Origin: Candidatus Gorgyraea atricola
GTDB lineage: Bacteria; Omnitrophota; Gorgyraeia; Gorgyraeales; Gorgyraeaceae
Direction: 5' to 3'
Assembly (NCBI GenBank): GCA_030765235.1
Contig: JAVCCW010000029.1
Coordinates: 140,939-204,938, forward strand
DNA length: 64,000 bases
Positions 10,487 through 48,484 of the stretch are shown in pieces (position 1 is the stretch's first letter; each line of letters opens with the position of its first letter). Below the pieces are notes generated by a model. That model ran no database searches. It was not told the origin of the DNA and was given only the letters and a program-made list of their open reading frames with translations. A program made the translations under genes and the position numbers.

Positions 10487-10540
10487 GGCGTGCCCCGTTC
10501 CATTTTTTCAATGAAATTGAAAAAATGGAACGGGGCATGG
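10487..10540. repeat. Mini inverted repeat built from family-A terminal sequence, abutting and overlapping the tRNA-Pro 5' end
   Basis: GGCGTGCCCCGTTCCATTTTTT-caatgaaattg-AAAAAATGGAACGGGGCATGG. The right arm runs into the tRNA-Pro acceptor stem CGGGGCA. Confidence 0.6.
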
Positions 10541-10608
10541 CTCAGTTTGGCTAGAGCACCTGCTTTGGGAGCAGGGGGTCGCTGGTTCGAGTCCAGCTGC
10601 CCCGACCA
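10531..10608 (+). tRNA. tRNA-Pro (anticodon TGG)
   Basis: Acceptor CGGGGCA/TGCCCCG, anticodon loop TTTGGGA, T-loop GGTTCGAGTCC, CCA encoded. Manually folded. Confidence 0.75.
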
Positions 10609-10610
10609 CT

Positions 10611-10687
10611 GTCCCTGTAGCTCAGATGGATAGAGCATTTGCCTTCTAAGCAAAGGGTCGCCTGTTCGAATCAGGCCAGGGACGCCA
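10611..10687 (+). tRNA. tRNA-Arg (anticodon TCT)
   Basis: Acceptor GTCCCTG/CAGGGAC, D-arm TAGCTCAGATGGATAGAGC, anticodon loop CTTCTAA, T-arm GCCTGTTCGAATCAGGC, CCA encoded. Confidence 0.75.
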
Positions 10688-10870
10688 CCCTACGCTCACA
10701 TGTGGCGATACTTCGCAGCAAGCTTCGGGTGGTAAACCACTTGACTTTAAAGCATGCTTGTCCTCCGAAGCATACTACAGAGATTGGCTATATTTGAGCG
10801 TAGGAGGACTTCGGGTGGCAAAGCCATCCATAACATGCTACTGTGAATAGCTATATGTGAGTGACGGGTG
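10688..10870. repeat. tRNA-trailer repeat block (family B), units bounded by CCTACGCTCACATG (or its reverse complement CATGTGAGCGTAGG)
   Basis: Shares long stretches (GCATGCTACGGGTGGCAAGCCA..., CGAAGCATACTACAGAGATTGGC..., GAGCGTAGGAGG) with the blocks at 17039-17215 and 17326-17443, which also follow tRNA genes. Confidence 0.7.
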
Positions 10871-10895
10871 ATAAACCATACCATCTTTAAGTGGC

Positions 10896-11750
10896 ATGAG
10901 AAAAGTAGTATATATAATTTTATTTCTTCTAGTCATTGCTTCGCTGGTGGTTGGTTATCACTATGCAACAGAACATCTGAAATTGTTTGTTGCTAGATTT
11001 CTGGAAGAGAATTTTGAGGAGAAGATTTCTGTTGCTTCAGTAGGACTTGGATTGCCGCTTTGTCTTGAGCTGCGTGATGTGAAAGTAAATGATTCGATCG
11101 ACATAAGGAATGTCAGGCTTTATCTAAATCCCAAGTCCTTTTTGACGAAAAAAGATTTTATGGTTTCAAAAGTCAAGGTAATAGACCCTGTTGTGAGGAT
11201 AAAGAAGAAGGGGAAGAAGGGTTTTCAAGTCCTTAATTTTTTGAAAAAAGAAGAAGGCTTGGGTTCTTTAAAAGGATCAAGTTCAAATATTCATTGCTCC
11301 AAGGTATACATAAAGAATGGCACCTTGATATACGAGCACAAAGAAGGACAGAGCTTTCAACTAGTAAAGATCAGGGGGCGTGTTAATAGTCCAACTCTTT
11401 GTTCTCCAGGGAAAAGCATGTTCGAGTTTGACGCAAGCGGATTTTTTAAAAACAAAGATTCAGACTCCCTGGCGCCTTTGAGCCTGACTGGCATTGCCGG
11501 GTCAGATGATACAATAAACGCAAGGCTCCAGGTAAACGACATAAAACTGGCGAGTCGCCTGATAAAAGACCTGAGCGTCGATCTTAAAAGTGACATTGAG
11601 ATCTCAAAAAAGACTTTAGTGGCCAGATGTTTAGTTGAAGGGAAGAATATGCCAGCTACAGGGAGTTTTATTTTACTTGTTAATTTTAAAAATAATCTAA
11701 TTAAGATAAAGAATCTACAGGGCAATTTTTTAAAGTACATCCTTAATTAA
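10896..11750 (+). CDS. Membrane-anchored protein, AsmA/DUF748-like N-terminal region
   Basis: One N-terminal TM helix (VVYIILFLLVIASLVVG), then a beta-rich region like the AsmA/TamB N-termini. Weak assignment. Confidence 0.4.
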   Translation: MRKVVYIILFLLVIASLVVGYHYATEHLKLFVARFLEENFEEKISVASVGLGLPLCLELRDVKVNDSIDIRNVRLYLNPKSFLTKKDFMVSKVKVIDPVVRIKKKGKKGFQVLNFLKKEEGLGSLKGSSSNIHCSKVYIKNGTLIYEHKEGQSFQLVKIRGRVNSPTLCSPGKSMFEFDASGFFKNKDSDSLAPLSLTGIAGSDDTINARLQVNDIKLASRLIKDLSVDLKSDIEISKKTLVARCLVEGKNMPATGSFILLVNFKNNLIKIKNLQGNFLKYILN

Positions 11751-11758
11751 TACGACGC

Positions 11759-11833
11759 GGTGGCTATAGTGTAATGGCAGCACTAGAGATTGTGGTTCTC
11801 TTAGAGCGGGTTCAAATCCCGTTAGCCACCCCA
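11759..11833 (+). tRNA. tRNA-His (anticodon GTG) with encoded G-1
   Basis: GGTGGCTATAG...anticodon loop TTGTGGT...GGGTTCAAATCCCGTTAGCCACCCCA. Near-identical in the acceptor/T-arm to E. coli tRNA-His, including the extra 5' G. Confidence 0.8.
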
Positions 11834-11926
11834 GTTTTCTTGTAACATATTGATAATAAATGCGTTACTGGGATACCCCTGACGAGACGATTATAAGATT
11901 TTAAACAGGGGATAAGGAGTGAAAGC

Positions 11927-12199
11927 ATGGATTTAAACTCTATTAAAGAATCTATTGTTACAAAAGTATACCATCTCACTTCAGATACAAAAGTCCCTCT
12001 GCATAAACACGAAAAGAATGATGAAATTTTTTATTGTATAAAAGGCTCTGGTTTTGGAGTTTTAGAAGATGGAGAAGTAGAGTTAAGTATAGGAAAAGTA
12101 TTTATTGTTTCTGCTGGAACAATGCATTCGCTTAGAAGCGAAGAAAATCTTTATGTAAGTTCTTTTCTTGTTCCTGTAGTGGATGATAGCTTAGAATAA
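11927..12199 (+). CDS. Cupin-domain protein
   Basis: 90 aa with cupin motifs (PLHKHEKNDEIFYCIKGSG....G..........G....H). AT-rich codon usage. Confidence 0.6.
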   Translation: MDLNSIKESIVTKVYHLTSDTKVPLHKHEKNDEIFYCIKGSGFGVLEDGEVELSIGKVFIVSAGTMHSLRSEENLYVSSFLVPVVDDSLE

Positions 12200-12279
12200 T
12201 TTAAACTACATGCAATATTCTATTTGATCGATGGAGTTGGATAATAAACTAGTTCTAAACTCGCATAAGAAGAGACCCC

Positions 12280-12373
12280 ATGGTTTGACGCGGCCGCCTT
12301 TGGCGGCCTTGCTCACCATGGTCCTGAGCAAGCGAACTCGCAAGCTTAACTATTGCGAGCGCGTCGAAGGGCC
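12280..12373. repeat. GC-rich structured repeat (family E copy 2) with additional hairpins (CGCGGCCGCC-tttg-GCGGCC and a CCATGG...CCATGG pair)
   Basis: CCTGAGCAAGCGAACTCGCAAGCTTAACTATTGCGAGCGCGTCGAAGGG matches 10389-10437 apart from 3 substitutions. It sits in an otherwise AT-rich islet. Confidence 0.7.
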
Positions 12374-12502
12374 ATCCGCCTCCTTCGTGCATGGGGCGAA
12401 TCAAAAGGATCAAAGAGCAATTCTTAAAATCCCCTTGACATTTTACAGGATATGTTGTATACTTTTATACAGAGAGTTGTATAAATATATACAAGTAATT
12501 GT

Positions 12503-13096
12503 ATGAAAGACTACAGAATAGATAATAAGCTGTTGCTGGATACTATTAGTGCGTGGAATAGGTTTCTTAAGAGAAAGGTGCGCCTTATTTCCTGTGGTGG
12601 TACAGCCTTGACTCTTTTAGGAATAAAAGCATCTACTAAGGATATTGATTTAATAGTTCCTGATTTAAAAGAATACGAGTATCTTATATCAATTTTAGAA
12701 CAGCTGGGATACAAGTCTGTAACCGGCTCAGGGTGGACGAGGGGCGATGGTCTTGTCTTTGACTTCTTTAGAGGAAAATTTGTCCATACTACTGAATTAT
12801 TGGAGTCACCATTGAAAGAGAAAAATCATACTTTGATCAAAGAATTCAGCTATATCTACTTAGGAGTTCTTAATTATTACGATCTTATAATTAGTAAATT
12901 GTTTAGAGGTAATGGTGTAGACATCGAAGATTGCAGTTCTTTAATAAAGGCAAAACAAAAAGATATAGACTTGAAATTATTAGAGCAGAGATTCAAAGAA
13001 ACAGCCTCTTATGATATTTCAGAAGATAGGGTAAATAAAAATCTAAAGCATTTTTTGAGCACTGTTAAACAAAAAGGATTAAGCAATGGTCGATAA
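12503..13096 (+). CDS. Nucleotidyltransferase-fold protein (minimal NTase, GG...D.D motif)
   Basis: SCGGTALTLLGIKASTKDIDLIV fits the pol-beta-type NTase signature hG[GS]x9-13DxD. Overlaps the next ORF by 11 nt. AT-rich. Confidence 0.45.
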   Translation: MKDYRIDNKLLLDTISAWNRFLKRKVRLISCGGTALTLLGIKASTKDIDLIVPDLKEYEYLISILEQLGYKSVTGSGWTRGDGLVFDFFRGKFVHTTELLESPLKEKNHTLIKEFSYIYLGVLNYYDLIISKLFRGNGVDIEDCSSLIKAKQKDIDLKLLEQRFKETASYDISEDRVNKNLKHFLSTVKQKGLSNGR

Positions 13097-13751
13097 GAGT
13101 CTTTTGAGAAGATTAAATAAGTTAGGGTTCCCTTTATTTGAGACGGAAGAGGTGCAGGACGCAAATGCTACCTTAGCAGAAGTAGTGCAAAGTAAAGACC
13201 TTCGTCTATGGGAAGGATTTTCTTTATTATTGGCGAATAGCGCGGAAAAAGGACTTTTCGATTATGATGTGGTTAAGCATAGTCTTAAGAAGTTACCTGA
13301 TAAAGTTGATTTGACAGCGCTATTAATAATGTCACTTGCCCTTTATAGGACTTTAAATATAAAGTTTTCATGGGCAGATAAATTATATAAGAATTTAAAC
13401 GCCAAAAGTAAGAAAGAATTCAGCGCTCTTTTAAATAAGTTAAAAAAGGACGAAGACTTTAAACTTGGTGGGCGAGTGATGTCCAGTCAGAGATTGAAAA
13501 CTATATTTGCTAACTATTATAATCAAAGAGACTCGAGTCTTAGCGAATTGCTTTCAGCAAGAGAAGAATTAGGCCTTGAATACGCATTGTCACAGGTTTT
13601 TTCCCCTAAACAAAAAGAGCTTTTTTTGAAAAAGCTAAAAGGCGAAAAAATGACTAAGACAGAAAAAGAATATTACTCTAGGGCCGTAAAAAAGAAAGTC
13701 TTGGCATTGGCGAATACAGAATTACATCGTCTATCGCGCAAGATAGCTTGA
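13086..13751 (+). CDS. Hypothetical protein (partner of the NTase-fold protein)
   Basis: 221 aa, helical and Lys-rich. No HEPN R-X4-6-H motif found and no recognised domain. Confidence 0.35.
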   Translation: MVDKSLLRRLNKLGFPLFETEEVQDANATLAEVVQSKDLRLWEGFSLLLANSAEKGLFDYDVVKHSLKKLPDKVDLTALLIMSLALYRTLNIKFSWADKLYKNLNAKSKKEFSALLNKLKKDEDFKLGGRVMSSQRLKTIFANYYNQRDSSLSELLSAREELGLEYALSQVFSPKQKELFLKKLKGEKMTKTEKEYYSRAVKKKVLALANTELHRLSRKIA

Positions 13752-13816
13752 TTTAAATCTTGCTATTCTAACTTTCTGGATGTAGAATAATCCATCAAAT
13801 TTGCTTAGGAGGCACA

Positions 13817-14554
13817 TTGAGTAGAGATACAATGAGTAGAGATACAATGCTTTTATATGGCAGGAATTCGGTGTATGAGCGGTTGAAGGCTAATCCGAGG
13901 AGCATAAGGACTGTGTTTCTGCAGGATGGTATTGAGCTTTGGCATATTGAGAAATTGGTACGCAAGAATCATATAGAGATGGCGCGTGTGAGTCCGAGGC
14001 AACTGTCCAAGATGAAACACCCTAAGGACCTGCAGGGTGTGGTTGCCAAGGTGGAGAAGTTCAGCTATGCTGACTTTGATGATCTGTTGAATAAAAAGAC
14101 CACGCTTATTTTTCTGGATAGGCTTAATGATCCTCAGAATCTAGGTGTTATCATTCGAACAGCAGCGTGTTTTGGAGGATTTGCGATCGTTATACCTAAG
14201 TTTAATGCGTGCGAGGTTACAGAAGCGGTTTTACATGTTGCATCAGGCGGTGAGAATTTCATAGCAGTTAGTATGATCTCGAATATCTCAAGCTCCATAC
14301 TAAAGGCAAAGAAAAAGGGATACTGGGTCATGGGAGGCGTTGTTGGTGACGATGCGCAGGACATTAACAGTATTTCTATTCCTTTTCCTTTAGGACTCAT
14401 ATTAGGATCAGAAGGTGGAGGGATCCGTCATGGCATTGACAAGCAGCTGGATGTAAAGGCGCGTATACCCATGAAGGGCGCTAATCTTTCCTTTAATGTG
14501 GCGATCTCCTGCGCCATCTTTTGCCACGAGATAGCCAAGCAGAGAAAATCATGA
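13817..14554 (+). CDS. rlmB: TrmH/SpoU-family RNA 2'-O-methyltransferase (RlmB-like 23S rRNA Gm methyltransferase)
   Basis: N-terminal substrate-binding domain (LLYGRNSVYE.L...P..I..VFL) plus the SPOUT motifs NLGVIIRTAACFG and LGSEGGGI. The start is ambiguous because of a 15-bp tandem duplication giving MSRDTMSRDTM. Probable ATG at 13832 or 13847. Confidence 0.8.
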   Translation: MSRDTMSRDTMLLYGRNSVYERLKANPRSIRTVFLQDGIELWHIEKLVRKNHIEMARVSPRQLSKMKHPKDLQGVVAKVEKFSYADFDDLLNKKTTLIFLDRLNDPQNLGVIIRTAACFGGFAIVIPKFNACEVTEAVLHVASGGENFIAVSMISNISSSILKAKKKGYWVMGGVVGDDAQDINSISIPFPLGLILGSEGGGIRHGIDKQLDVKARIPMKGANLSFNVAISCAIFCHEIAKQRKS

Positions 14555-15099
14555 ATATTCAGGATGCCTGGGGAAAGGCGTTAAAAAAGACAAAGATAAT
14601 ACGTCCTCGCGCGCAGGAGCTACAGACCTTTTCTGACACGAATATCTCGTATACATTTTTGGCAGAGGCATTAGTGAATAAGGGCGATACTATTGTAAGA
14701 CAGGGCGAGGTTATGGTGGAAAAACCTGCGATCATACTACCTTCTAATCTGCCGCAGTTCGAGGGTTTTGATTTTGAGAAGGAATTAGAGATCGGTCACG
14801 AGATGGTCATGAATTTTCTTCTTGTAAGAGGTGTGAATTTTCCTTCCATGAAGTACAATAATAAAACAGCGTCGCTTAATATTTACGACGGCCACATAGA
14901 AAAGGCGATTTCGTATCACTCTGATATGTTGCAGCGCAAGGAAGACGTACATTCCGGGCTGGTTGTCGGACCTGAGGACTGCTGGCAGTTTTCAGTGCTG
15001 ATCTTTATTTGCACCCAGATCGCCAAGTCAGCCAATAGCGACATAAGAAGATTGTTAGAGCGTTTCAATAAAGAAGACAGACCCCATTCCAAATTCTAG
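14551..15099 (+). CDS. Hypothetical protein
   Basis: Internal ATG (MNIQDAWGK...) overlaps the rlmB stop by 4 nt (ATGA coupling). No recognised domain. Its 3' end runs into the family-A repeat. Confidence 0.45.
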   Translation: MNIQDAWGKALKKTKIIRPRAQELQTFSDTNISYTFLAEALVNKGDTIVRQGEVMVEKPAIILPSNLPQFEGFDFEKELEIGHEMVMNFLLVRGVNFPSMKYNNKTASLNIYDGHIEKAISYHSDMLQRKEDVHSGLVVGPEDCWQFSVLIFICTQIAKSANSDIRRLLERFNKEDRPHSKF

Positions 15100-15185
15100 T
15101 CGATAGTCAATTTGCTGTTTGTAACTAACTGCGGGCAATTCTCGTAGATTATTTGATGATTTTTAAGAATTTGGAACGGGGCAAG
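15082..15185. repeat. Family-A 104-bp repeat, diverged single copy
   Basis: CCCCATTCCAAATTC...TTTTAAGAATTTGGAACGGGGCAAGCC. Ends and length match the 914-1121 units while the interior has diverged. Confidence 0.8.
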
Positions 15186-15207
15186 CCTCGCTAATCCCCA
15201 CCACCTA

Positions 15208-16212
15208 ATGCAAAAGAAAAATATCAAGAATTTTACAATTGAAGAATTAAAGGAAGAACTGGGCAAGCTCTCAGAGGCATCTTACAGGGCGAATCAGCTT
15301 TTTGAGTGGATATATAAGAAAGGCGCGCGCAGTTTTGATGAGATGGGTAATCTGCCGAAATCTTTCAGGGATAAACTTGGTAGAGTTTTTTGCCTGGGAG
15401 GTGTTAAGCTAAAGGAGAGGCTTAAATCCAGGGATGGCACTGAGAAGTTTTTGTTTGAATTAGAGGACGGTGGTCTTATAGAGAGCGTACTTATACCAAG
15501 CAGCTCAAGAAAAACGATCTGCCTTTCCACGCAGGTCGGATGTAAATTTGGGTGTGCGTTTTGCGCAAGCGGCCTCAAAGGATTCAAGAGAGACCTTTTT
15601 CCGTCAGAGATCCTTGACCAGATTATTCTTGTGGGCGGTGAGATAACAAATTTTGTGTTTATGGGCATGGGCGAGCCGCTGGATAATTTTGAGAATCTGA
15701 AAAGAGTGATCGAGATAATGAATTCTCCATTAGGTCTGGGTATCGGCGCCAGGAGAATAACTGTTTCAACGTGCGGGATAATACCCGGGATCAGGAGATT
15801 TAAGGAAATAGATCTTCAAGTAAATCTCTCGATATCTCTTCACGCTGCCAATAATAAACTTCGAAGTAGTCTGATGTCTATCAATAAAAAGTATCCTTTG
15901 GAAGAGTTGATAGCAGCATGTAATGATTTTTCAGGAAGGATGATCACGCTCGAATATATATTAATCAAGGATAAGAATGATTCACTAAGGGACGCAAATG
16001 AACTTTCTCACATAGCTAAAAAAATAAAGGCCAAGATAAATCTCATTCCTTATAGTCCTGTGTCTGGGAAGAGATTCAAGGTGCCCACTGGGAAAGATAT
16101 TGAGCTATTTCAGAAGAGACTGGTCAAAAACAGCGTGAATGTAACTCTTCGCGAGTCAAAAGGTAAAGACATCTTTGCTGCCTGCGGCCAGCTGGCAATG
16201 AAAAATAGTTGA
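15208..16212 (+). CDS. rlmN: 23S rRNA m2A2503 / tRNA m2A37 methyltransferase RlmN (radical SAM)
   Basis: ANQLFEWIY, the CxxxCxxC cluster (CKFGCAFCASG), GMGEPL, and a C-terminal Cys (FAACGQL). Confidence 0.85.
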   Translation: MQKKNIKNFTIEELKEELGKLSEASYRANQLFEWIYKKGARSFDEMGNLPKSFRDKLGRVFCLGGVKLKERLKSRDGTEKFLFELEDGGLIESVLIPSSSRKTICLSTQVGCKFGCAFCASGLKGFKRDLFPSEILDQIILVGGEITNFVFMGMGEPLDNFENLKRVIEIMNSPLGLGIGARRITVSTCGIIPGIRRFKEIDLQVNLSISLHAANNKLRSSLMSINKKYPLEELIAACNDFSGRMITLEYILIKDKNDSLRDANELSHIAKKIKAKINLIPYSPVSGKRFKVPTGKDIELFQKRLVKNSVNVTLRESKGKDIFAACGQLAMKNS

Positions 16213-16243
16213 AAGAATCTGACCCTCTTTTTGTGTCTATTAT

Positions 16244-16277
16244 AATAGTAGCCCAGGTTTAAACCTGGGTTACTATT
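16244..16277. repeat. Family-D PmeI-core palindrome (AATAGTAGCCCAGGTTTAAACCTGGGTTACTATT)
   Basis: Seen directly, one mismatch in the arms. Lies between rlmN and radC. Confidence 0.85.
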
Positions 16278-16296
16278 AAAAAAAGGGGGTTTTATT

Positions 16297-16971
16297 ATGG
16301 CTATAGATAGCTGGCCTAAAGATGAAAGGCCAAGGGAGAGGCTTTTTAAGCACGGAGAGCACACGCTGAATAGTTCAGAGCTTCTGGCGATATTGTTTGG
16401 ACAAGGGTCAGAAGGCAAGAGCGCAGTGGAATTAGGGAGCGAACTCATAACGCATTTTAAGACATTTCGCAATATGAGTCATACTGATATTGTTCAGTTG
16501 CAGGGTTTCAAAGGCATGGGCAGGGCAAAGATCGCCAGGCTTAGAGCAACATTTGAGATAGCCAGGAGATTTATGAGCGAGGAAAAACAGCCTGGATACA
16601 GGGTCAGATCGCCAAGAGAGGTAGCTGATTTTTTAATGCCAAGGTTAAGGGACCTAAAAAAGGAGATATTTAAAATATTGCTTCTAGATGGCAAAAATAA
16701 TATAATAGATATACTTGAGGTAGAGGAAGGTTCGGTTGATCGGGCAGCGCCTCAGATCAGGGAGGTAATGGTAAAGGCGCTCCAGAATTTTGCCACAAGC
16801 ATTATTGCGGTACATAATCATCCATCTGGAGACCCTGAGCCGAGTGAAGAGGATGTCTTGTTTACTGAGAATCTTAAGGCAGCAGGTGAAGTGCTTCAGC
16901 TGAACGTGCTGGATCATATTATAATAGGAGACAATAGGTTTTATAGTTTCACTGACGAAAAGCGCCTATAG
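16297..16971 (+). CDS. radC: RadC-like JAB-domain protein (UPF0758)
   Basis: HNHPSGDPEPSEEDVLFTENL JAMM motif and the N-terminal helix-hairpin-helix region. Its 3' end overlaps the first 10 nt of the downstream tRNA. Confidence 0.85.
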   Translation: MAIDSWPKDERPRERLFKHGEHTLNSSELLAILFGQGSEGKSAVELGSELITHFKTFRNMSHTDIVQLQGFKGMGRAKIARLRATFEIARRFMSEEKQPGYRVRSPREVADFLMPRLRDLKKEIFKILLLDGKNNIIDILEVEEGSVDRAAPQIREVMVKALQNFATSIIAVHNHPSGDPEPSEEDVLFTENLKAAGEVLQLNVLDHIIIGDNRFYSFTDEKRL

Positions 16972-17038
16972 CTCAATCGGATAGAGTGGCTGGCTTCGAA
17001 CCAGTAGGTTGGAGGTTCAAATCCTCCTAGGCGCGCCA
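16962..17038 (+). tRNA. tRNA-Arg (anticodon TCG by manual folding)
   Basis: Acceptor GCGCCTA/TAGGCGC, anticodon stem GCTGG/CCAGT with loop CTTCGAA, T-arm GGAGGTTCAAATCCTCC, CCA encoded. Confidence 0.65.
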
Positions 17039-17215
17039 CCCTACGTTCACATGGGGTTAATCTTCGTAGCATACTACGGATGGCAAGCCACCTTTAGTCT
17101 TCGAAGCATGCTACAGAGATTAGCAACGCATGAGCGTAGGAGACCTTTGCTCAAATATAGCGATTCTTCGTAGCATGCTACGGGTGGCAAGCCATTTGTG
17201 TGTTGACTACATATC
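17039..17215. repeat. Family-B tRNA-trailer repeat block (two units)
   Basis: CCCTACGTTCACATGGGG...CTTCGTAGCATACTACGGATGGCAAGCCACC...CATGAGCGTAGGAG...GATTCTTCGTAGCATGCTACGGGTGGCAAGCCA. Shares its ends and internal segments with 10688-10870 and 17326-17443. Confidence 0.7.
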
Positions 17216-17249
17216 TGTTCTATGATATATTACTGAAACTTGGGTAGTC

Positions 17250-17325
17250 GCCCCCATAGCTCAGCTGGTAGAGCAGATCACTCTTAATGATAAGGTCACA
17301 GGTTCGAGCCCTGTTGGGGGTACCA
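17250..17325 (+). tRNA. tRNA-Lys (anticodon CTT)
   Basis: Acceptor GCCCCCA/TGGGGGT, D-arm TAGCTCAGCTGGTAGAGC, anticodon loop CTCTTAA, T-arm ACAGGTTCGAGCCCTGT, CCA encoded. Confidence 0.7.
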
Positions 17326-17443
17326 TCCTACGCTCACATAGAGCGATTCTTCGTAGCATGCTACGGGTGGCAAGCCACCTAATTTTAAAAAGGGCTTGCC
17401 CGCCGAAGCAAACTTCGAAGATTAGCAGCACATGAGCGTAGGC
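17326..17443. repeat. Family-B tRNA-trailer repeat (one unit)
   Basis: TCCTACGCTCACATAGAGCGATTCTTCGTAGCATGCTACGGGTGGCAAGCCACC...CACATGAGCGTAGGCGGG. Confidence 0.7.
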
Positions 17444-17528
17444 GGGCGGATGGTGAAACTGGCAGACACGCTAGCCTTAGGAGCTAGTGGAGCAATCCAT
17501 GGAGGTTCGACTCCTCTTCCGCCCACCA
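17444..17528 (+). tRNA. tRNA-Leu (anticodon TAG), long variable arm
   Basis: Acceptor GGGCGGA/TCCGCCC, anticodon loop CTTAGGA, extra arm, T-arm GGAGGTTCGACTCCTCT, CCA encoded. Confidence 0.7.
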
Positions 17529-17610
17529 AATCCGCCGAAGGCGGATTTGATCCTGAGCGAGCGTAATGAGGCAACGAATAGGAGCCTCATAGCGAAGTGA
17601 AGGACCTTTG
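17529..17610 (+). ncRNA. tRNA-trailer two-hairpin structured element (copy 1)
   Basis: AAATCCGCC-GAAG-GCGGATTT, then GATCCTGAG, then TGAGGC-AACGAATAGGA-GCCTCA. The paralogous copy after tRNA-Gly keeps the loops but changes both stems compensatorily. Confidence 0.5.
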
Positions 17611-17710
17611 ACAAAGTGAATGAGTAGAATTTGTCCCTCAGTGCCTACAATGCTCCTGCTCGTCGCATTGTTTAACGGCACTTCGGGATGAAATTTACTT
17701 CGTAAATTTC

Positions 17711-17785
17711 GCGGGAGTAGCTCAGTGGTAGAGCTTTTCGTTGCCAACGAAAAGGTCGCGGGTTCGAGCCCCGTCTCCCGCTCCA
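17711..17785 (+). tRNA. tRNA-Gly (anticodon GCC)
   Basis: Acceptor GCGGGAG/CTCCCGC, anticodon loop TTGCCAA, T-arm GCGGGTTCGAGCCCCGT, CCA encoded. Confidence 0.75.
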
Positions 17786-45620: not shown

Positions 45621-45850
45621 CAAGCCAAAGGAAGTCCTGTTCGCTCAAGTGAAACTTTCCCCCTCGCTTTGCTCGGGGTCGCCTTTCATTTTGCATTTTG
45701 GTGGGGGTGAAAAAACTTACCCGACACCATAGGTGTCGGGGTCGAACAGTTTTCGCCCTTTTTGTCTCATAAAATGTGACAAAATAAACCCCCAAAATGC
45801 AAAATGAAAGGCTAAATTTTCAATTCGCTCCCAGGACTTCCTTTGGCTTG
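45621..45850. mobile_element. MITE-like 230-bp element with 19-bp perfect terminal inverted repeats and nested internal palindromes
   Basis: CAAGCCAAAGGAAGTCCTG...CAGGACTTCCTTTGGCTTG at the ends. Internal IR CTTTCATTTTGCATTTTGGTGGGGG/CCCCCAAAATGCAAAATGAAAG and a central hairpin CCCGACACCATAGGTGTCGGG. Confidence 0.6.
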
Positions 45851-46017
45851 GAATAATTTGTTGCAGTAGGGTGTACCCAAATAGGACGTTTGTAGTATAG
45901 TATATAATATAGTACTTAAATTTTAGATTGCAAATGCCGTATTTGTATGATATAATTAAAATTACTAGATAGATAGAATAAATATATAGCCTTATAAAAA
46001 AACAAGGCTTATTTTTT

Positions 46018-48345
46018 ATGTGGATTATGAGAAAGTTTAAAAAACATTACAATTTCAATATAAAGATTATATTCTTCATAGTTTCTGTTACATTTATATT
46101 TACAACCATTGTTCATTCTTGCCCAATTTCAAGAGGCTCACTAAGAGTTCCTTTTTTATTTCAAGACACAAGTAAAAAAGAGATAAAAGATAAGCCTAAT
46201 GCATTTATAATTAATGGAAAGAAACTATCCCCTTTGATTGCACCAACGGCAATTACTCACCGATTTGAAAGTGATGATTCTAGTGTTGCATGTATTCGTG
46301 AGCTCGCGCCAAATGTCGCATGTGACCTTGTTATAAAGTCTGAGACTCAAGTTTTTATTTTTTTACCAGGAGATATAGAAGAATTAAAGAAAAATTTTAC
46401 TTTAAGCGAGGCAGAGGAGTTGCTACAAAAAGCTAAATTTGGAAAGAATTCTGGTTTCTTCAAGCTGGGTAAAGAAGGAAGCATCCCTGAGTCAATGGGT
46501 ATTGAATATATAGAATTAGTTCAACAGGCACTAGTCGAATTGGGCGAAACAAGAGAGTTTATTGCGATAGGAAACACCAGCAAGGCCAAAACACAAGAGG
46601 AAGCCATAATAATGGCAGGACTGTGGGCCGGATTTTTAAAAATGCCTTATGTTAAGCTTGAGATCAGAGATCAAGATCTAATGACAAAGAATGATGAAAT
46701 AATAGATACTGTAGAACGATTGATCAAACTTAACAAGGATATTAAAATCCTCCCCTTAATAGGAAAAGGAATAACAAAAAAAATGCTAAAGAAATTATTG
46801 AACTTGAATCAAGTCATTGCGTTGCGTATCGAAGGAACGCAACCAGGCTCAGGTAAAGGTTTGGGAACAGAAAAGGAGAAAGATCGAATAAAAAAGATTA
46901 TTACTTGGGTTAAAGAGATAAAACCAGATATTCCATTGATTGCCGAATGTGGTATAGGTATGCCTGAACATGCTAAGGAAGCAATGAATATGGGATTCGA
47001 TGCTGTTTTAGTAAACGCGGCTATCACTGAATCTGATACTCCAGTTGAACTCGCTGTTGAATTCGCCAAAGCTGTTAACGATGCTACAAGGGTATCGCAA
47101 CCACATATCTGGCTTAAAAGAGAAAATATAGATAAATTTTATACCCAGTTCTTGAAGAAAAATATATTATCTGAGATTCTCGAAAAGGTAAATGAGGCGA
47201 TTAGACAAGGCCGCACTCGCAAGTTTTTTGTTGGCAAATATGAGTTACTTAAATTGCCGTCATCAAATATAGTTATGGCAAAGATTACATTTCCTGATTT
47301 GGTTAAGCCGAGAGCAACTACAAATGCAATAGAAGCAGGTAAGAGCACTCTTGTAAAGCCAAGTTTTTTAAAAGTAGACCAAGATGATTTACTATATGAT
47401 TTAGATAAAATAGGATTACCATATAATTTTTTAGTTAGACATGCACCTTTTTGTAAAGATCAATTTATGTTTTGTAACAAGAAAGATAAATATATTGGCT
47501 TTGTACCGTTAATGATTATGTATGTTTTAGGAAAGATAAACCCTGATATTAGATGCTATCATCAATCTTCAGGTGCTGGAGCCACAGATCCCACTTTTCC
47601 TCACTATTCGTTCTTTTTTAAGATAGATATGAATGATATAAAGAATCCTGTTGTAGAAAATGAACTATTCAATACATCAATCGATCTAAGCGCACCTATT
47701 TTATCATTACCAACAAAGAAGATGCAAGACTATCCCAACTTACCTATTAATATGCTACCAAATTATCCTGGGGCTAATTTTATCATTGAAGGGGAGGATA
47801 TAGTAAAAAATATCTTCATCACTCTGTTTATAATAAGATTGTTGGATGAGTTAAAATTATCATATAATTTTATTTATGCTGATGGTCGTTATTATATTTT
47901 TGTAAAATCAACTCAATATGGCGGAGAAGGAATTTTTAGTACTCTGAAAGTAGGGATATTAGAAACAATCGGTTATTTTGTTCTTGATGGAAGATCTTGT
48001 AAGGAGATTGAAGAGTCTTTAGTCAGAGACAGAATGAATCTGGAGTTTAACAGCTTAGACGGCCATATGTATGAGGAAATATTGAAAGACATTTTGTCTA
48101 AAGAGAAAGACCTCGAATTTGTTTACAAAAGACTAAAAAAACTTGATCAATGGTTTGCGGTTTTAGAATCACTAAACCTAGCTCCTGTAGAAGAAATTTT
48201 ATCACGATTATCTCCGATATTGTCAGATAGAAAAAATAACATAAGTGCTTTTATTGAATCATTGCCTATAGATAAAAATCTTATATCTGAGTTACTAGGT
48301 GATAAATTGCTAGACCAGGTTAGGGCCATTGATTTTTATTTGTAG
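46018..48345 (+). CDS. Large signal-anchored protein with a central ThiG-like (thiazole synthase) TIM-barrel domain; the N- and C-terminal extensions are unknown
   Basis: Residues ~195-365 parallel ThiG: YVKLEIRDQDLMTKNDEIIDTVERL, GTQPGSGKGLG, IPLIAECGIGMPEHAKEAMNMGFDAVLVNAAI (compare ThiG [26 protein letters not shown]). Hydrophobic N-terminus. Strongly AT-rich, no obvious SD, flanked by the MITE and a terminator. Confidence 0.5.
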   Translation: MWIMRKFKKHYNFNIKIIFFIVSVTFIFTTIVHSCPISRGSLRVPFLFQDTSKKEIKDKPNAFIINGKKLSPLIAPTAITHRFESDDSSVACIRELAPNVACDLVIKSETQVFIFLPGDIEELKKNFTLSEAEELLQKAKFGKNSGFFKLGKEGSIPESMGIEYIELVQQALVELGETREFIAIGNTSKAKTQEEAIIMAGLWAGFLKMPYVKLEIRDQDLMTKNDEIIDTVERLIKLNKDIKILPLIGKGITKKMLKKLLNLNQVIALRIEGTQPGSGKGLGTEKEKDRIKKIITWVKEIKPDIPLIAECGIGMPEHAKEAMNMGFDAVLVNAAITESDTPVELAVEFAKAVNDATRVSQPHIWLKRENIDKFYTQFLKKNILSEILEKVNEAIRQGRTRKFFVGKYELLKLPSSNIVMAKITFPDLVKPRATTNAIEAGKSTLVKPSFLKVDQDDLLYDLDKIGLPYNFLVRHAPFCKDQFMFCNKKDKYIGFVPLMIMYVLGKINPDIRCYHQSSGAGATDPTFPHYSFFFKIDMNDIKNPVVENELFNTSIDLSAPILSLPTKKMQDYPNLPINMLPNYPGANFIIEGEDIVKNIFITLFIIRLLDELKLSYNFIYADGRYYIFVKSTQYGGEGIFSTLKVGILETIGYFVLDGRSCKEIEESLVRDRMNLEFNSLDGHMYEEILKDILSKEKDLEFVYKRLKKLDQWFAVLESLNLAPVEEILSRLSPILSDRKNNISAFIESLPIDKNLISELLGDKLLDQVRAIDFYL

Positions 48346-48438
48346 GTGTTAGAGGTATTAGTAAAGTATTAGGGACGGTTCTCAGCCCAATCCCAGGCCT
48401 GTCTTTAAAATTCAATAAAGTCCAATCAGTTTTCACTT

Positions 48439-48484
48439 AACTTTACATTTTAGGTCTTGCTTTAAATGTAAAGTTATTTTTTTG
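48439..48484 (+). terminator. Rho-independent terminator (12-bp stem AACTTTACATTT...AAATGTAAAGTT, then a T-tract)
   Basis: Seen directly, downstream of the 775-aa ORF. A TTGACT-17-TATTAT promoter for glk follows. Confidence 0.75.

What the first reader, a model, noticed from the sequence alone, without database searches (positions are those of the whole stretch)
46018..48345. 775-aa signal-anchored protein with an embedded ThiG-like thiazole-synthase barrel, in an AT-rich island
The middle ~170 residues of this ORF align colinearly with thiazole synthase ThiG (ThiG text from memory, not retrieved).
- The Schiff-base lysine context is kept (VKLEI here, compare IKVEV in ThiG).
- The Gly-rich phosphate loop is kept (PGSGKGLG, compare IGSGQGI).
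- The DAGIG...AMELG.DGVL.NTAI block is kept (ECGIGMPEHAKEAMNMGFDAVLVNAAI).
Around this core lie a hydrophobic N-terminal anchor or signal and about 400 residues of unrecognisable C-terminal sequence. The gene is markedly AT-richer than its neighbours and has no clear SD. It sits between a MITE-like element and a strong terminator, and has no thiS/thiF/thiO/thiH/thiE neighbours. A ThiG-fold catalytic core in a large exported protein is not a described architecture. It could be a repurposed imine-forming sugar-phosphate enzyme acting on the envelope or outside the cell, or a horizontally acquired effector.
Basis: partly seen in the sequence, partly recalled or inferred. Interest (0 to 1): 0.78.

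Follow-up and report, generated by a model that had tools for sequence, protein, structure and literature searches.

The report
Exported ThiG-like enzyme cassette, Omnitrophota
This gene, recently inserted into a Candidatus Gorgyraea atricola (Omnitrophota) genome, encodes a signal-bearing protein with a complete but very divergent thiazole-synthase/thiosugar-synthase-type barrel; the same barrel also occurs as a portable cassette in other exported and giant multi-enzyme proteins of that phylum, so it is almost certainly not a vitamin B1 enzyme, and its real substrate is unknown.

Summary
ORF 46018-48345 (775 aa) has one N-terminal hydrophobic segment, then a complete ThiG/BexX-type TIM barrel at residues ~60-358 (Pfam ThiG E=6e-23; model pLDDT 81; Foldseek hits BexX and ThiG at TM ~0.8, other barrels ~0.5). 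The last 420 aa have no relative among 1.84 billion representatives. The Schiff-base Lys213, Glu215 and the phosphate loops are kept. ThiG's catalytic Asp is Glu310, as in BexX. The barrel belongs to a small clade, Omnitrophota wherever a locus is titled, equally distant from ThiG and BexX (~30%). It occurs alone behind a signal peptide, in a 1139-aa protein, and in three giant ORFs (>=3771 to >=4457 aa), with no thiamin genes or recurrent partner. The window is Ca. Gorgyraea atricola. Relatives with identical synteny lack the gene, so ~45872-48478 is a 2.6-kb low-GC insertion with its own promoter and terminator. The palindromic element belongs to the backbone, not the island. A near-identical variant carries a stop at codon 518. 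Best reading: a horizontally acquired, exported two-module protein whose barrel forms a lysine imine with a phosphosugar independently of thiamin synthesis. Function is inferred only. New variant of a known kind; moderate interest.

The parts
45872..48478 (+). Low-GC insertion (~2.6 kb) holding a promoter, the gene and a terminator. It replaces 332 bp of unrelated spacer found in syntenic relatives.
   Evidence: Backbone homology to L014/L015 (84-88% identity) ends near 45871 and resumes near 48478. In the relatives GGDEF and ROK are 664 nt apart with no gene between them. GC is 0.31-0.36 against 0.41-0.46 in the flanks.
45928..45956 (+). Sigma-70-like promoter, TTGCAA - 17 nt - TATAAT, with a TG immediately before the -10 hexamer.
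   Evidence: Scores 10 of 12 in the scan, with TG before the -10. The -35 TTG and the TGATATAAT block are conserved in the L002 homologue's leader.
46018..48345 (+). CDS of 775 aa. An alternative start at 46027 (M4) is possible.
   Evidence: ORF listing. P0002's start codon aligns with M4.
46018..46122 (+). N-terminal signal peptide or N-in signal anchor (residues 1-35). VHS|C is a possible cleavage or lipidation site.
   Evidence: Kyte-Doolittle 2.21 for residues 17-35, with +5 before the segment and +1 after it. Model helix at 2-34. P0002 has a homologous N-terminus, and P0004 and P0001 also begin with hydrophobic segments.
46123..46194 (+). Disordered linker (residues 36-59) containing the conserved SLRVPFLFQ.
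   Evidence: pLDDT below 50. Conserved with P0002.
46195..47091 (+). Complete ThiG/BexX-type (beta/alpha)8 barrel (residues ~60-358).
   Evidence: Pfam ThiG E=6.3e-23. AF2 pLDDT mostly 85-98. Foldseek: BexX 4n6f E=3e-17 with TMt 0.80-0.82; ThiG structures E=6e-16 to 5e-12 with TMt 0.75-0.83; the next barrels score E>=5e-8 with TMt ~0.5.
46654..46668 (+). K213-L-E215-I-R217: Schiff-base Lys, catalytic Glu, and an Arg shared with BexX.
   Evidence: K213 aligns with B. subtilis ThiG K96 and E215 with E98. K and E are invariant in all 8 clade members. R217 is shared with BexX but not ThiG.
46843..46866 (+). PGSGKGLG phosphate-binding loop (residues 276-283).
   Evidence: Aligned with ThiG IGSGQG.
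46945..46959 (+). E310-C-G-I-G: Glu in place of the ThiG catalytic Asp (B. subtilis D182), followed by the GIG loop.
   Evidence: Glu in all 8 clade members and in BexX; Asp in all 6 canonical ThiGs aligned.
47083..48342 (+). C-terminal ORFan module (residues 356-775). It is coding, but its fold and function are unknown.
   Evidence: 0 in-frame stops against 17-46 in the other five frames; 0 of 20,000 shuffles stay open; GC1>GC2>GC3. Its only hit among 1.84e9 representatives is its own fragment. No Pfam, PHROG, PADLOC or PDB hit. AF2 pLDDT 34.
47569..47571 (+). Codon 518 (TCA, Ser), which is TAA (stop) in a 99.8%-identical contig from another metagenome assembly.
   Evidence: L005 equals window 47483-48373 with 2 mismatches, K491E and S518*.
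48438..48484 (+). Terminator-like hairpin (13 bp) plus U7 at the right edge of the island.
   Evidence: I7. dG -15.4 kcal/mol, z -4.35.
45621..45850 (.). Adjacent backbone palindromic element. It is not part of the island.
   Evidence: 19-nt perfect terminal inverted repeats, 2 matches against 0.01 expected. MFE -117 kcal/mol, z -13.3. Present in L014/L015, which lack the gene.

Best explanation
The gene is a horizontally acquired accessory gene of Candidatus Gorgyraea atricola. It encodes a two-module protein that is exported or anchored by its N-terminus.

Module 1 (residues ~60-358) is a complete, strongly divergent member of the ThiG/BexX barrel family. It belongs to a small clade, Omnitrophota in every titled locus, that behaves as a portable cassette. 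The cassette occurs alone behind a signal peptide, in a 1139-aa protein, and inside giant multi-enzyme ORFs. It never has a thiamin-pathway context or a fixed partner module.

Inferred mechanism: Lys213 forms a covalent imine with the carbonyl of a phosphorylated sugar held by the retained Gly-rich phosphate loops. Glu215 and Glu310 act as acid/base residues to move the carbonyl, giving an Amadori-type isomerisation or a follow-up addition or elimination, as in the first half-reactions of ThiG and BexX. This would not use the ThiS-type sulfur carrier or dehydroglycine that thiazole synthesis needs, and so would not make thiamin.

Module 2 (residues 356-775) is a lineage-specific ORFan module of the kind that dominates Omnitrophota long proteins. 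It is coding but possibly dispensable.

Shown: fold, family, residue conservation, clade distribution, insertion, N-terminal hydrophobic segment. Inferred: export topology, catalytic activity, substrate class, independence from sulfur carriers.
For: Fold and family:
-.
- The Foldseek hits show a clean gap between ThiG/BexX (TMt ~0.8) and all other barrels (TMt ~0.5).

Active site:
- K213, E215 and the phosphate loops are invariant across 8 modules that are only 45-61% identical.
- The Asp-to-Glu change at residue 310, R217 and R270 are shared with BexX.

Separate clade:
- Subfamily hits score 478-496 bits and canonical ThiGs ~70 bits.
- Identity is 30.2% to ThiG and 29.0% to BexX, while ThiG and BexX are 40% identical.

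Cassette behaviour:
- Standalone forms: P0002 (375 aa) and P0004 (368 aa).
- Split form: P0003/L004.
- Larger hosts: P0001 (1139 aa), and giant ORFs in L007 (>=3771 aa), L009/L010 (>=4457 aa) and L011 (>=4278 aa).
- Only the cassette is shared between these proteins.
- No conserved neighbours and no thi genes.

Export signal: plus homologous or analogous N-termini in P0002, P0004 and P0001.

Horizontal acquisition:
- Empty site in syntenic relatives.
- Low GC and low GC3.
- Promoter and leader co-conserved with L002.
- The relatives' own genes match their genomes' GC.

Host identity.

Literature frame:
- Omnitrophota long proteins tile many unrelated enzyme Pfams, 94% carry a signal peptide or TM segment, and 80% are sequence singletons (bioRxiv 10.64898/2026.06.07.730766).
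- A predatory or parasitic lifestyle has been proposed for the phylum (PMC10066038).
Against: - No biochemical or expression data exist, so activity and substrate are pure inference.
- Export rests on hydropathy and the positive-inside rule only. No SignalP or DeepTMHMM run was possible, and a periplasmic phosphosugar substrate is not obvious.
- ThiG and BexX both need a sulfur-carrier protein, and its absence nearby does not prove independence from one.
- The junction between barrel and C-terminus (~47080) has no independent sequence support.
- The only near-identical variant has a nonsense codon and a missense change in the C-terminal module, which hints at decay.
- The family census relied on word- and pattern-limited searches, so rarity and phylum restriction describe only what these searches could find; divergent members may have been missed.
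Confidence: 0.6

Rival explanations
1. It is a real sulfur-carrier-dependent ThiG or BexX-type enzyme (a thiazole or thiosugar synthase). [quoted passage not shown]
For: - The Pfam ThiG score is well above the gathering threshold.
- K213, E215 and the phosphate loops are kept.
- It shares Glu and Arg states with BexX.
- thiG was called in only 38 of 176 complete Omnitrophota genomes, while thiE, thiC and thiL are near-universal (bioRxiv 10.64898/2026.06.07.730766).
Against: - The clade is far too rare to fill a phylum-wide gap: 8 loci in searches of billions of proteins.
- The positive-inside rule puts the barrel outside the cytoplasm.
- The ThiG catalytic Asp is not kept.
- No thiS, thiF, thiO, thiH or thiE gene, and no secondary-metabolite genes, occur in any of the loci.
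- The cassette sits inside giant ORFs next to unrelated modules.
- It is an accessory insertion that close relatives lack.
Confidence: 0.08
2. It is a decaying chimeric relic. A P0002-like gene was fused to foreign or non-homologous sequence during or after transfer, the C-terminal 420 aa have no function, and the gene is on its way to pseudogenisation.
For: - The C-terminus has no homologue anywhere.
- The AF2 model has low confidence.
- Both differences in the 99.8%-identical contig change the protein, and one is a stop at codon 518.
- It is the lowest-GC part of the gene.
- Standalone relatives end right after the barrel.
Against: - 420 codons are open in 32%-GC DNA where ~35 stops are expected, and 0 of 20,000 shuffles stay open. 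The region also has a coding-type GC1>GC2>GC3 pattern.
- The barrel part keeps every clade-invariant residue.
- ORFan modules are the norm in this protein class.
- The variant is one short contig, so the stop may be a sequencing error or a minority allele.
Confidence: 0.17
3. The barrel is a non-catalytic phosphosugar- or ligand-binding or scaffolding module, for example one used for adhesion to or recognition of host surface polymers.
For: - Omnitrophota giant proteins have been proposed to act in adhesion or as a surface coat (PMC10066038).
- The cassette is combined with WD40, HPr and other non-pathway modules.
Against: The Lys/Glu/Glu triad and both phosphate loops are invariant at 45-61% overall identity. 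That pattern is typical of a maintained active site rather than of a binding surface alone.
Confidence: 0.1

Closest known systems
Thiazole synthase ThiG (Pfam PF05690; PDB 1tyg, 2htm, 1xm3, 5z9y, 1wv2)
   Same: - Same (beta/alpha)8 fold (TMt 0.75-0.83).
- Significant HMM match.
- The Schiff-base Lys, the following Glu, and the GSG.G, GIG and VN.A phosphate loops are all kept.
   Different: - ~30% identity, forming a separate deep branch.
- The catalytic Asp is replaced by Glu.
- The N-terminal third is divergent, about 45 residues longer and carries insertions.
- It has an N-terminal signal or anchor.
- It is fused to other modules.
- No thiS, thiF, thiO, thiH or thiE context.
- It is an accessory, horizontally moved gene.
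BexX, 2-thioglucose-6-phosphate synthase of BE-7585A biosynthesis (PDB 4n6e, 4n6f; Sasaki et al. 2014, cited through PMC5925218)
   Same: - Best structural hit (E=3e-17, TMt 0.80-0.82).
- Shares Glu at the ThiG-Asp position and two Arg residues (R217, R270) that canonical ThiG lacks.
- It is a precedent for a ThiG-fold enzyme that uses a hexose phosphate rather than DXP.
   Different: - 29% identity.
- At 5 other discriminating positions BexX sides with ThiG rather than with this clade.
- BexX is a cytoplasmic actinomycete enzyme in an antibiotic gene cluster and takes sulfur from carrier proteins. Here there is no such cluster, and the protein carries an export signal.
Omnitrophota long 'multi-enzyme' proteins (bioRxiv 10.64898/2026.06.07.730766; 10.1101/2023.11.21.568195; PMC10066038)
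   Same: - Same phylum and class (Gorgyraeia).
- N-terminal signal or anchor.
- Unrelated enzyme-type and ORFan modules strung together.
- The very same cassette is found inside ORFs of >=3.7 to >=4.4 kaa.
   Different: - Only 775 aa with two modules.
- It lacks the VNLSPYE head and the GGIDLN tail seen in P0001, L004 and L007.
- I found no mention of a ThiG cassette in either paper's main text, or in the one held supplement of the 2026 preprint.

Membership tests
ThiG thiazole synthase (PF05690, EC 2.8.1.10) | Significant match to the family HMM above the curated threshold | tested here: met
   E=6.3e-23, 81.8 bits against a cutoff of 23. Only profile positions 51-226 of 247 are matched.
ThiG thiazole synthase (PF05690, EC 2.8.1.10) | Complete (beta/alpha)8 barrel superposable on solved ThiG structures | tested here: met
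   Model pLDDT 80.8. TMt 0.75-0.83 to 2htm, 1tyg, 1xm3, 5z9y and 1wv2.
ThiG thiazole synthase (PF05690, EC 2.8.1.10) | Schiff-base lysine (B. subtilis K96) and the neighbouring Glu98 | tested here: met
   K213 and E215 align with them and are invariant in all 8 clade members. The residue roles come from my own knowledge of Settembre et al. 2004 and Dorrestein et al. 2004, not from anything re-read here.
ThiG thiazole synthase (PF05690, EC 2.8.1.10) | Catalytic Asp in the DAGIG motif (B. subtilis D182) | tested here: not met
   Glu310 in the window protein and Glu in all 8 clade members. Asp in all 6 canonical ThiGs aligned.
ThiG thiazole synthase (PF05690, EC 2.8.1.10) | Phosphate-binding Gly-rich loops | tested here: met
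   PGSGKGLG, GIG and VNAA are aligned and conserved.
ThiG thiazole synthase (PF05690, EC 2.8.1.10) | Genomic association with thiS, thiF, thiO/thiH or thiE (pathway listed in PMC3020362) | tested here: not met
   None within about 5 genes either side in the window, and none in L001-L004. The rest of the genome was not examined.
ThiG thiazole synthase (PF05690, EC 2.8.1.10) | Soluble cytoplasmic protein of ~255 aa without a targeting signal | tested here: not met
   775 aa, with a hydrophobic segment at residues 17-35 preceded by a +5 charge. The test used hydropathy only; no dedicated signal-peptide predictor was available.
ThiG thiazole synthase (PF05690, EC 2.8.1.10) | Binds ThiS thiocarboxylate and forms the thiazole phosphate | not testable with these tools
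   Requires biochemistry or complementation.
BexX-type thiosugar synthase | ThiG-fold barrel with the imine-forming Lys and BexX-specific active-site states | tested here: inconclusive
   Best Foldseek hit. It shares 3 of the 8 discriminating positions where BexX matches one side or the other (R217, R270, E310), but BexX sides with ThiG at the other 5. Identity is 29%. Only a BexX fragment (residues 76-235) was available.
BexX-type thiosugar synthase | Located in a secondary-metabolite cluster and served by sulfur-carrier proteins | tested here: not met
   No such genes in any of the loci. Use of a sulfur carrier is not testable here.
Omnitrophota long multi-enzyme proteins (>=10 kaa catalogue of the 2026 preprint) | Length of at least 10,000 aa | tested here: not met
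   775 aa. The cassette-bearing relatives are >=3771, >=4457 and >=4278 aa, and all three are cut by locus ends.
Omnitrophota long multi-enzyme proteins (>=10 kaa catalogue of the 2026 preprint) | Omnitrophota host, N-terminal signal or TM segment, and a string of unrelated enzyme or ORFan modules | tested here: met
   The host is Ca. Gorgyraea atricola. Signal segment. ThiG-like module plus ORFan module. The same cassette is shared with giant ORFs.

The most novel reading that the evidence does not exclude
The ThiG-like barrel is one cassette of a shuffling repertoire of Omnitrophota exported 'enzyme-on-a-string' proteins. In this reading, giant precursors are cut at protein-private linker motifs (D[PG]AMV in L007, RSE[VTA]R in L009, possibly [LT]RV here) to release individual enzymes. 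The released barrel would be a sulfur-carrier-independent, imine-forming phosphosugar enzyme that acts outside the producer's cytoplasm, on a host or prey cell or on the shared envelope space. That would be a new biological role for the ThiG fold and would make these giant proteins bacterial polyproteins.
Probability: 0.12. Interest if true: 0.8.

Novelty: new variant of a known kind. Interest (0 to 1): 0.52.

Why it matters
The known members of the ThiG fold are cytoplasmic, sulfur-carrier-dependent enzymes (ThiG and BexX). A third, deep branch that keeps the imine-forming active site would extend the chemistry and biology of the family, because it travels as a cassette in exported and giant proteins of a phylum thought to be predatory or parasitic. 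It would also offer a small, tractable entry point into the function of the otherwise intractable Omnitrophota giant proteins: 375-775 aa to express, instead of tens of thousands. The clean empty-site comparison shows that such cassettes move between Omnitrophota genomes as self-contained units of promoter, gene and terminator.

Tried and rejected
C-terminal 420 aa (nothing found):
- Pfam, NCBIfam, PHROGs, PADLOC and PDB sequence searches gave no credible hit.
- An exhaustive phmmer search of 1.84e9 representatives found only the protein's own fragment.
- tblastn against all fetched loci and the rest of the window found nothing.
- The single-sequence AF2 model had pLDDT 34, so I ran no fold search on it.
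- An apparent internal duplication (LDKIGLPYNF / LDELKLSYNF; D1) is not significant (E=0.1).
- From memory, 'GAGATDPTFPHYSFF' and 'SYNFIYADGRYYIF' resembled GalT/Apa2-type HIT half-domains. No tool result supports this, so I dropped it as a claim.

Origin of the extension by read-through of a P0002-type stop codon: tail similarity is not significant (624 of 2000 shuffles reach the score).

The palindromic 'MITE' as vehicle of the island: rejected, because it is present in relatives that lack the gene.

Functional hints from context:
- No conserved neighbours.
- No recurrent partner module within the multi-module proteins.

Other checks:
- There is no canonical thiG elsewhere in the window.
- Exact look-ups of the 775-aa and 772-aa products and of the GGDEF neighbour found nothing on record.
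- The afdb50 fold library was unavailable.
- The primary ThiG and BexX papers were not held, so catalytic-residue roles rest on my own knowledge.
- The Rfam gathering scan found only tRNAs.
Full report

Yes. The ORF 46018..48345 (+) encodes 775 aa. Pfam ThiG (PF05690) matches residues 169-355 at E=6.3e-23 (81.8 bits, cutoff 23). By sequence, the best solved relatives are T. thermophilus ThiG (2htm, 7e-15), the thiosugar synthase BexX (4n6e, 6e-11) and B. subtilis ThiG (1tyg, 6e-9).

The residue-by-residue alignment to 1tyg gives these equivalences:

| Window protein | B. subtilis ThiG |
|---|---|
| K213 | K96 |
| E215 | E98 |
| PGSGKGLG (276-283) | IGSGQGI |
| E310 | D182 |

A model of residues 1-371, built with a 10-sequence alignment, has mean pLDDT 80.8 and pTM 0.75. 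It shows a single helix at 2-34, a disordered stretch at 35-59, and a barrel from ~60 to 358.

Foldseek against the PDB separates two groups cleanly:
- BexX (E=3e-17, target TM 0.80-0.82) and five ThiG structures (E=6e-16 to 5e-12, TM 0.75-0.83).
- Every other TIM barrel (E>=5e-8, TM ~0.5).

The ThiG-like part is therefore a whole barrel of ~300 residues, not a 170-residue core.

- The N-terminus has one hydrophobic segment (17-35, Kyte-Doolittle 2.21), with a +5 charge before it and +1 after it, and there is no other such segment.
- Gene GC is 0.334 against 0.423 for the window, and GC3 is 0.26-0.30 against 0.38-0.52 in neighbouring genes.
- The neighbours are DnaJ, DUF1015, AccD, GAF and GGDEF upstream, and ROK kinase, LptD, UDP-glucose dehydrogenase, a nucleotidyl transferase (Pfam NTP_transferase) and a dTDP-glucose 4,6-dehydratase downstream. 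There are no thiamin genes and no canonical thiG elsewhere in the window.

**2. The C-terminal 420 residues**

They hit nothing in Pfam, NCBIfam, PHROGs, PADLOC or PDB sequences. An exhaustive phmmer search of 1.84 billion representatives returned only a 238-aa fragment of the same protein. The single-sequence AF2 model is unusable (pLDDT 34).

The region is nevertheless coding:
- It has 0 in-frame stops, against 17-46 in the other five frames.
- About 35 stops are expected, and 0 of 20,000 shuffles stay open.
- GC1>GC2>GC3.

The fragment comes from an independent 891-bp ENA contig (L005). That contig equals window 47483-48373 with two mismatches, and both change the protein: K491E and S518*. 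This confirms that the sequence exists in a second assembly, and it hints that the extension may be dispensable. It is only one short contig, though.

**3. Relatives of the barrel**

Word-indexed searches of 5.8 billion proteins found four close relatives:

| Protein | Length | Identity | Notes |
|---|---|---|---|
| P0002 | 375 aa | 61% | Candidatus Omnitrophota; N-terminus and 5' leader homologous to the window gene |
| P0004 | 368 aa | 45% | Own hydrophobic N-terminus |
| P0003 | 381 aa | 54% | |
| P0001 | 1139 aa | 59% | Barrel at 750-1043, behind a signal-like N-terminus, a 'VNLSPYE' head and a P-loop region |

After these (478-496 bits), the score drops straight to canonical ThiGs (~70 bits).

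Pattern scans added more loci:
- The scan of 185,579 species genomes returned four loci, all titled Candidatus Omnitrophota/Omnitrophica.
- The scan of JGI metagenome contigs returned two more.
- In L007, L009/L010 and L011 the cassette lies inside ORFs of >=3771, >=4457 and >=4278 aa, which run to the locus ends.
- Those ORFs also contain MutS-V, WD40, HPr and methyltransferase modules.

All-against-all BLASTP shows that only the ThiG-like cassette is shared among these proteins. The exceptions are a 'GGIDLN...LLGL' tail shared by L007 and P0001, and the 'VNLSPYE' head shared by P0001 and the ORF upstream of P0003 in L004. No neighbourhood is conserved, and no thiS, thiF, thiO, thiH or thiE gene occurs in any locus.

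**4. Active-site state of the clade**

Across the eight modules (45-61% identical to the window copy) the following are invariant: the Schiff-base Lys, the next-but-one Glu, the GS..G and G-I loops, and VLVNAAIT.

- All eight have Glu where the six canonical ThiGs have Asp. BexX also has Glu there.
- The clade also shares R217 and R270 with BexX.
- At five other discriminating positions BexX sides with ThiG.
- Mean identity over the common core is 30.2% to ThiG and 29.0% to BexX, while ThiG and BexX are 40% identical.

The clade is thus a third, deeper branch of the ThiG/BexX family with a maintained active site.

The roles of K96, E98 and D182 in ThiG, and of the imine-forming Lys in BexX, come from my own knowledge of the primary papers. 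I could not retrieve those papers. The BexX-G6P complex and BexX's homology to ThiG are documented by the PDB title and by PMC5925218.

**5. Genomic status**

Ten backbone proteins of the window match NCBI proteins MDP8230709-745 exactly. These come from a 404-kb contig of the MAG 'Candidatus Gorgyraea atricola', so the host is Omnitrophota, class Gorgyraeia.

Contigs of close relatives (L014 and L015, 84-88% nucleotide identity) have identical synteny, from HrcA-GrpE-DnaK-DnaJ through DUF1015-AccD-GAF-GGDEF to ROK-LptD-UGDH. In them only 664 nt, with no gene, lie between GGDEF and ROK.

Backbone homology stops at about window 45871 and resumes at about 48478. So a 2.6-kb segment replaces 332 bp of unrelated spacer. 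That segment carries:
- the promoter (TTGCAA - 17 nt - TATAAT, 45928-45956);
- the gene;
- a terminator hairpin (48438-48484, dG -15.4 kcal/mol, z -4.4).

Several further observations support horizontal acquisition from another, lower-GC Omnitrophota lineage:
- The window gene has low GC.
- The relatives' cassette genes match their own genomes' GC.
- DNA-level similarity to L002 starts 70 nt upstream of the ATG and ends at the barrel's end.

No integrase or target-site duplication is visible.

The 230-nt palindromic element at 45621-45850 is real (perfect 19-nt terminal repeats, z -13.3). It is present in the empty-site relatives, so it belongs to the backbone.

**6. What it most likely is and does**

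Shown:
- A complete ThiG/BexX-type barrel with a conserved imine-type active site and phosphate loops.
- An N-terminal Sec-type signal or N-in anchor, judged by hydropathy and the charge rule.
- Cassette-like distribution in Omnitrophota exported and giant proteins.
- Absence of any thiamin or sulfur-carrier context.
- Recent insertion.

Inferred:
- The barrel forms a Lys213 imine with a phosphorylated keto- or aldo-sugar.
- It carries out carbonyl migration or a follow-up step without a ThiS-type carrier, outside thiamin synthesis.
- The second module is a lineage-specific ORFan of the type that dominates these proteins.

The literature frame fits this reading:
- Omnitrophota long proteins tile hundreds of unrelated Pfams. 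94% have a signal peptide or TM segment, and 80% are sequence singletons (bioRxiv 10.64898/2026.06.07.730766).
- Giant ORFs have been linked to predation or adhesion (10.1101/2023.11.21.568195; PMC10066038).
- The main text of the two giant-protein preprints I term-searched mentions no ThiG cassette, and the one held supplement of the 2026 preprint has none.

The rivals are a real sulfur-carrier-dependent ThiG/BexX enzyme, a decaying chimeric relic, and a non-catalytic binding module. They are weighed in their own sections.

**7. Verdict**

The thing is a new variant of a known kind: a new deep branch and a new architectural context of the ThiG/BexX fold, within the already reported class of Omnitrophota modular proteins.

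Interest is moderate. Function is unproven. The cassette is small and expressible, and so could give access to the biology of the giant proteins.

Caveats:
- The family census used word- and pattern-limited searches.
- Export was not tested with a dedicated predictor.
- The barrel/C-terminus junction has no independent sequence support.

Noticed in passing
L007 ORF 18-11318 (aa 273, 1438, 1550, 1772, 2418, 2962, 3313, 3691); L009 ORF 3-13376 (aa 1274, 1401, 2646, 2968, 3177, 3726, 4164): Each giant ORF has its own short motif recurring between modules. L007 has D[PG]AMV 8 times (0.002 expected; 0 of 5000 shuffles reach this) and L009 has R[SA]E[VTAI]R 7 times (0.056 expected). Each motif is absent from the other proteins. 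The ThiG-like cassette is bounded by them: in L007 one follows it directly, and in L009 one lies 20 aa before it and one right after it. They may be processing sites or linker signatures. No paper holding both 'Omnitrophota' and 'polyprotein' was found.
   Followed up: partly
window 46141-46149 (aa 42-44) and 47086-47094 (aa 357-359): The window protein contains exactly two [LT]RV tripeptides (GSLRVPF and DATRVSQ), one on each side of the barrel. The second aligns with L007's 'TDGAMVSQ' linker. This is a post hoc observation on a short motif, so the evidence is weak.
   Followed up: partly
L001 10001-13420 (P0001); L004 22-696 and 717-1934; L007 C-terminus: A 'PVLLKG...VNLSPYE...DLLAQDY' N-terminal head (in P0001 and in the ORF upstream of P0003) and a 'GGID(L/M)N...LLGL' C-terminal tail (in P0001, P0003 and L007) frame otherwise unrelated cores. 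No Pfam family covers them. In L004 the head and the barrel-plus-tail are separate ORFs in different frames, which could mean a split gene or a pseudogene.
   Followed up: partly
window 47483-48373 compared with L005 (ENA ERZ27315522 k141_84126): A 99.8%-identical contig from another assembly carries K491E and a nonsense S518* (TCA to TAA) in the C-terminal module. The gene caller there split the gene.
   Followed up: yes
window 45621-45850; L014 ~10630-10825: The GGDEF-ROK spacer is a hotspot for long palindromes. The window element (19-nt perfect terminal repeats, MFE -117 kcal/mol, z -13.3) is conserved in relatives. The relatives carry a second, different long inverted repeat (CTCTGCATTGCCCAGACCAG...CTGGTCTGGGCAATGCAGAG) exactly where the island sits in the window. 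There is no Rfam hit.
   Followed up: partly
window 46018 / 46027: The start codon is ambiguous. The start of the P0002 homologue aligns with the second ATG (M4). Neither the 775-aa nor the 772-aa product is on record in the gene index, although neighbouring proteins of the same NCBI MAG are.
   Followed up: partly
window 10531-17782: Seven tRNA genes lie in two clusters, at 10531-11830 and 16962-17782 (Rfam gathering scan).
   Followed up: no
L002 2716-4755: In the Omnitrophota SAG AM-312-B13, a TPP-enzyme gene lying next to pyruvate:ferredoxin oxidoreductase (POR) family genes carries Hint and intein-splicing domains.
   Followed up: no
L017 29-1132 (-): One relative contig has an rve_3 integrase/transposase gene upstream of the HrcA-DnaK block that is not seen in the other relatives.
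   Followed up: no
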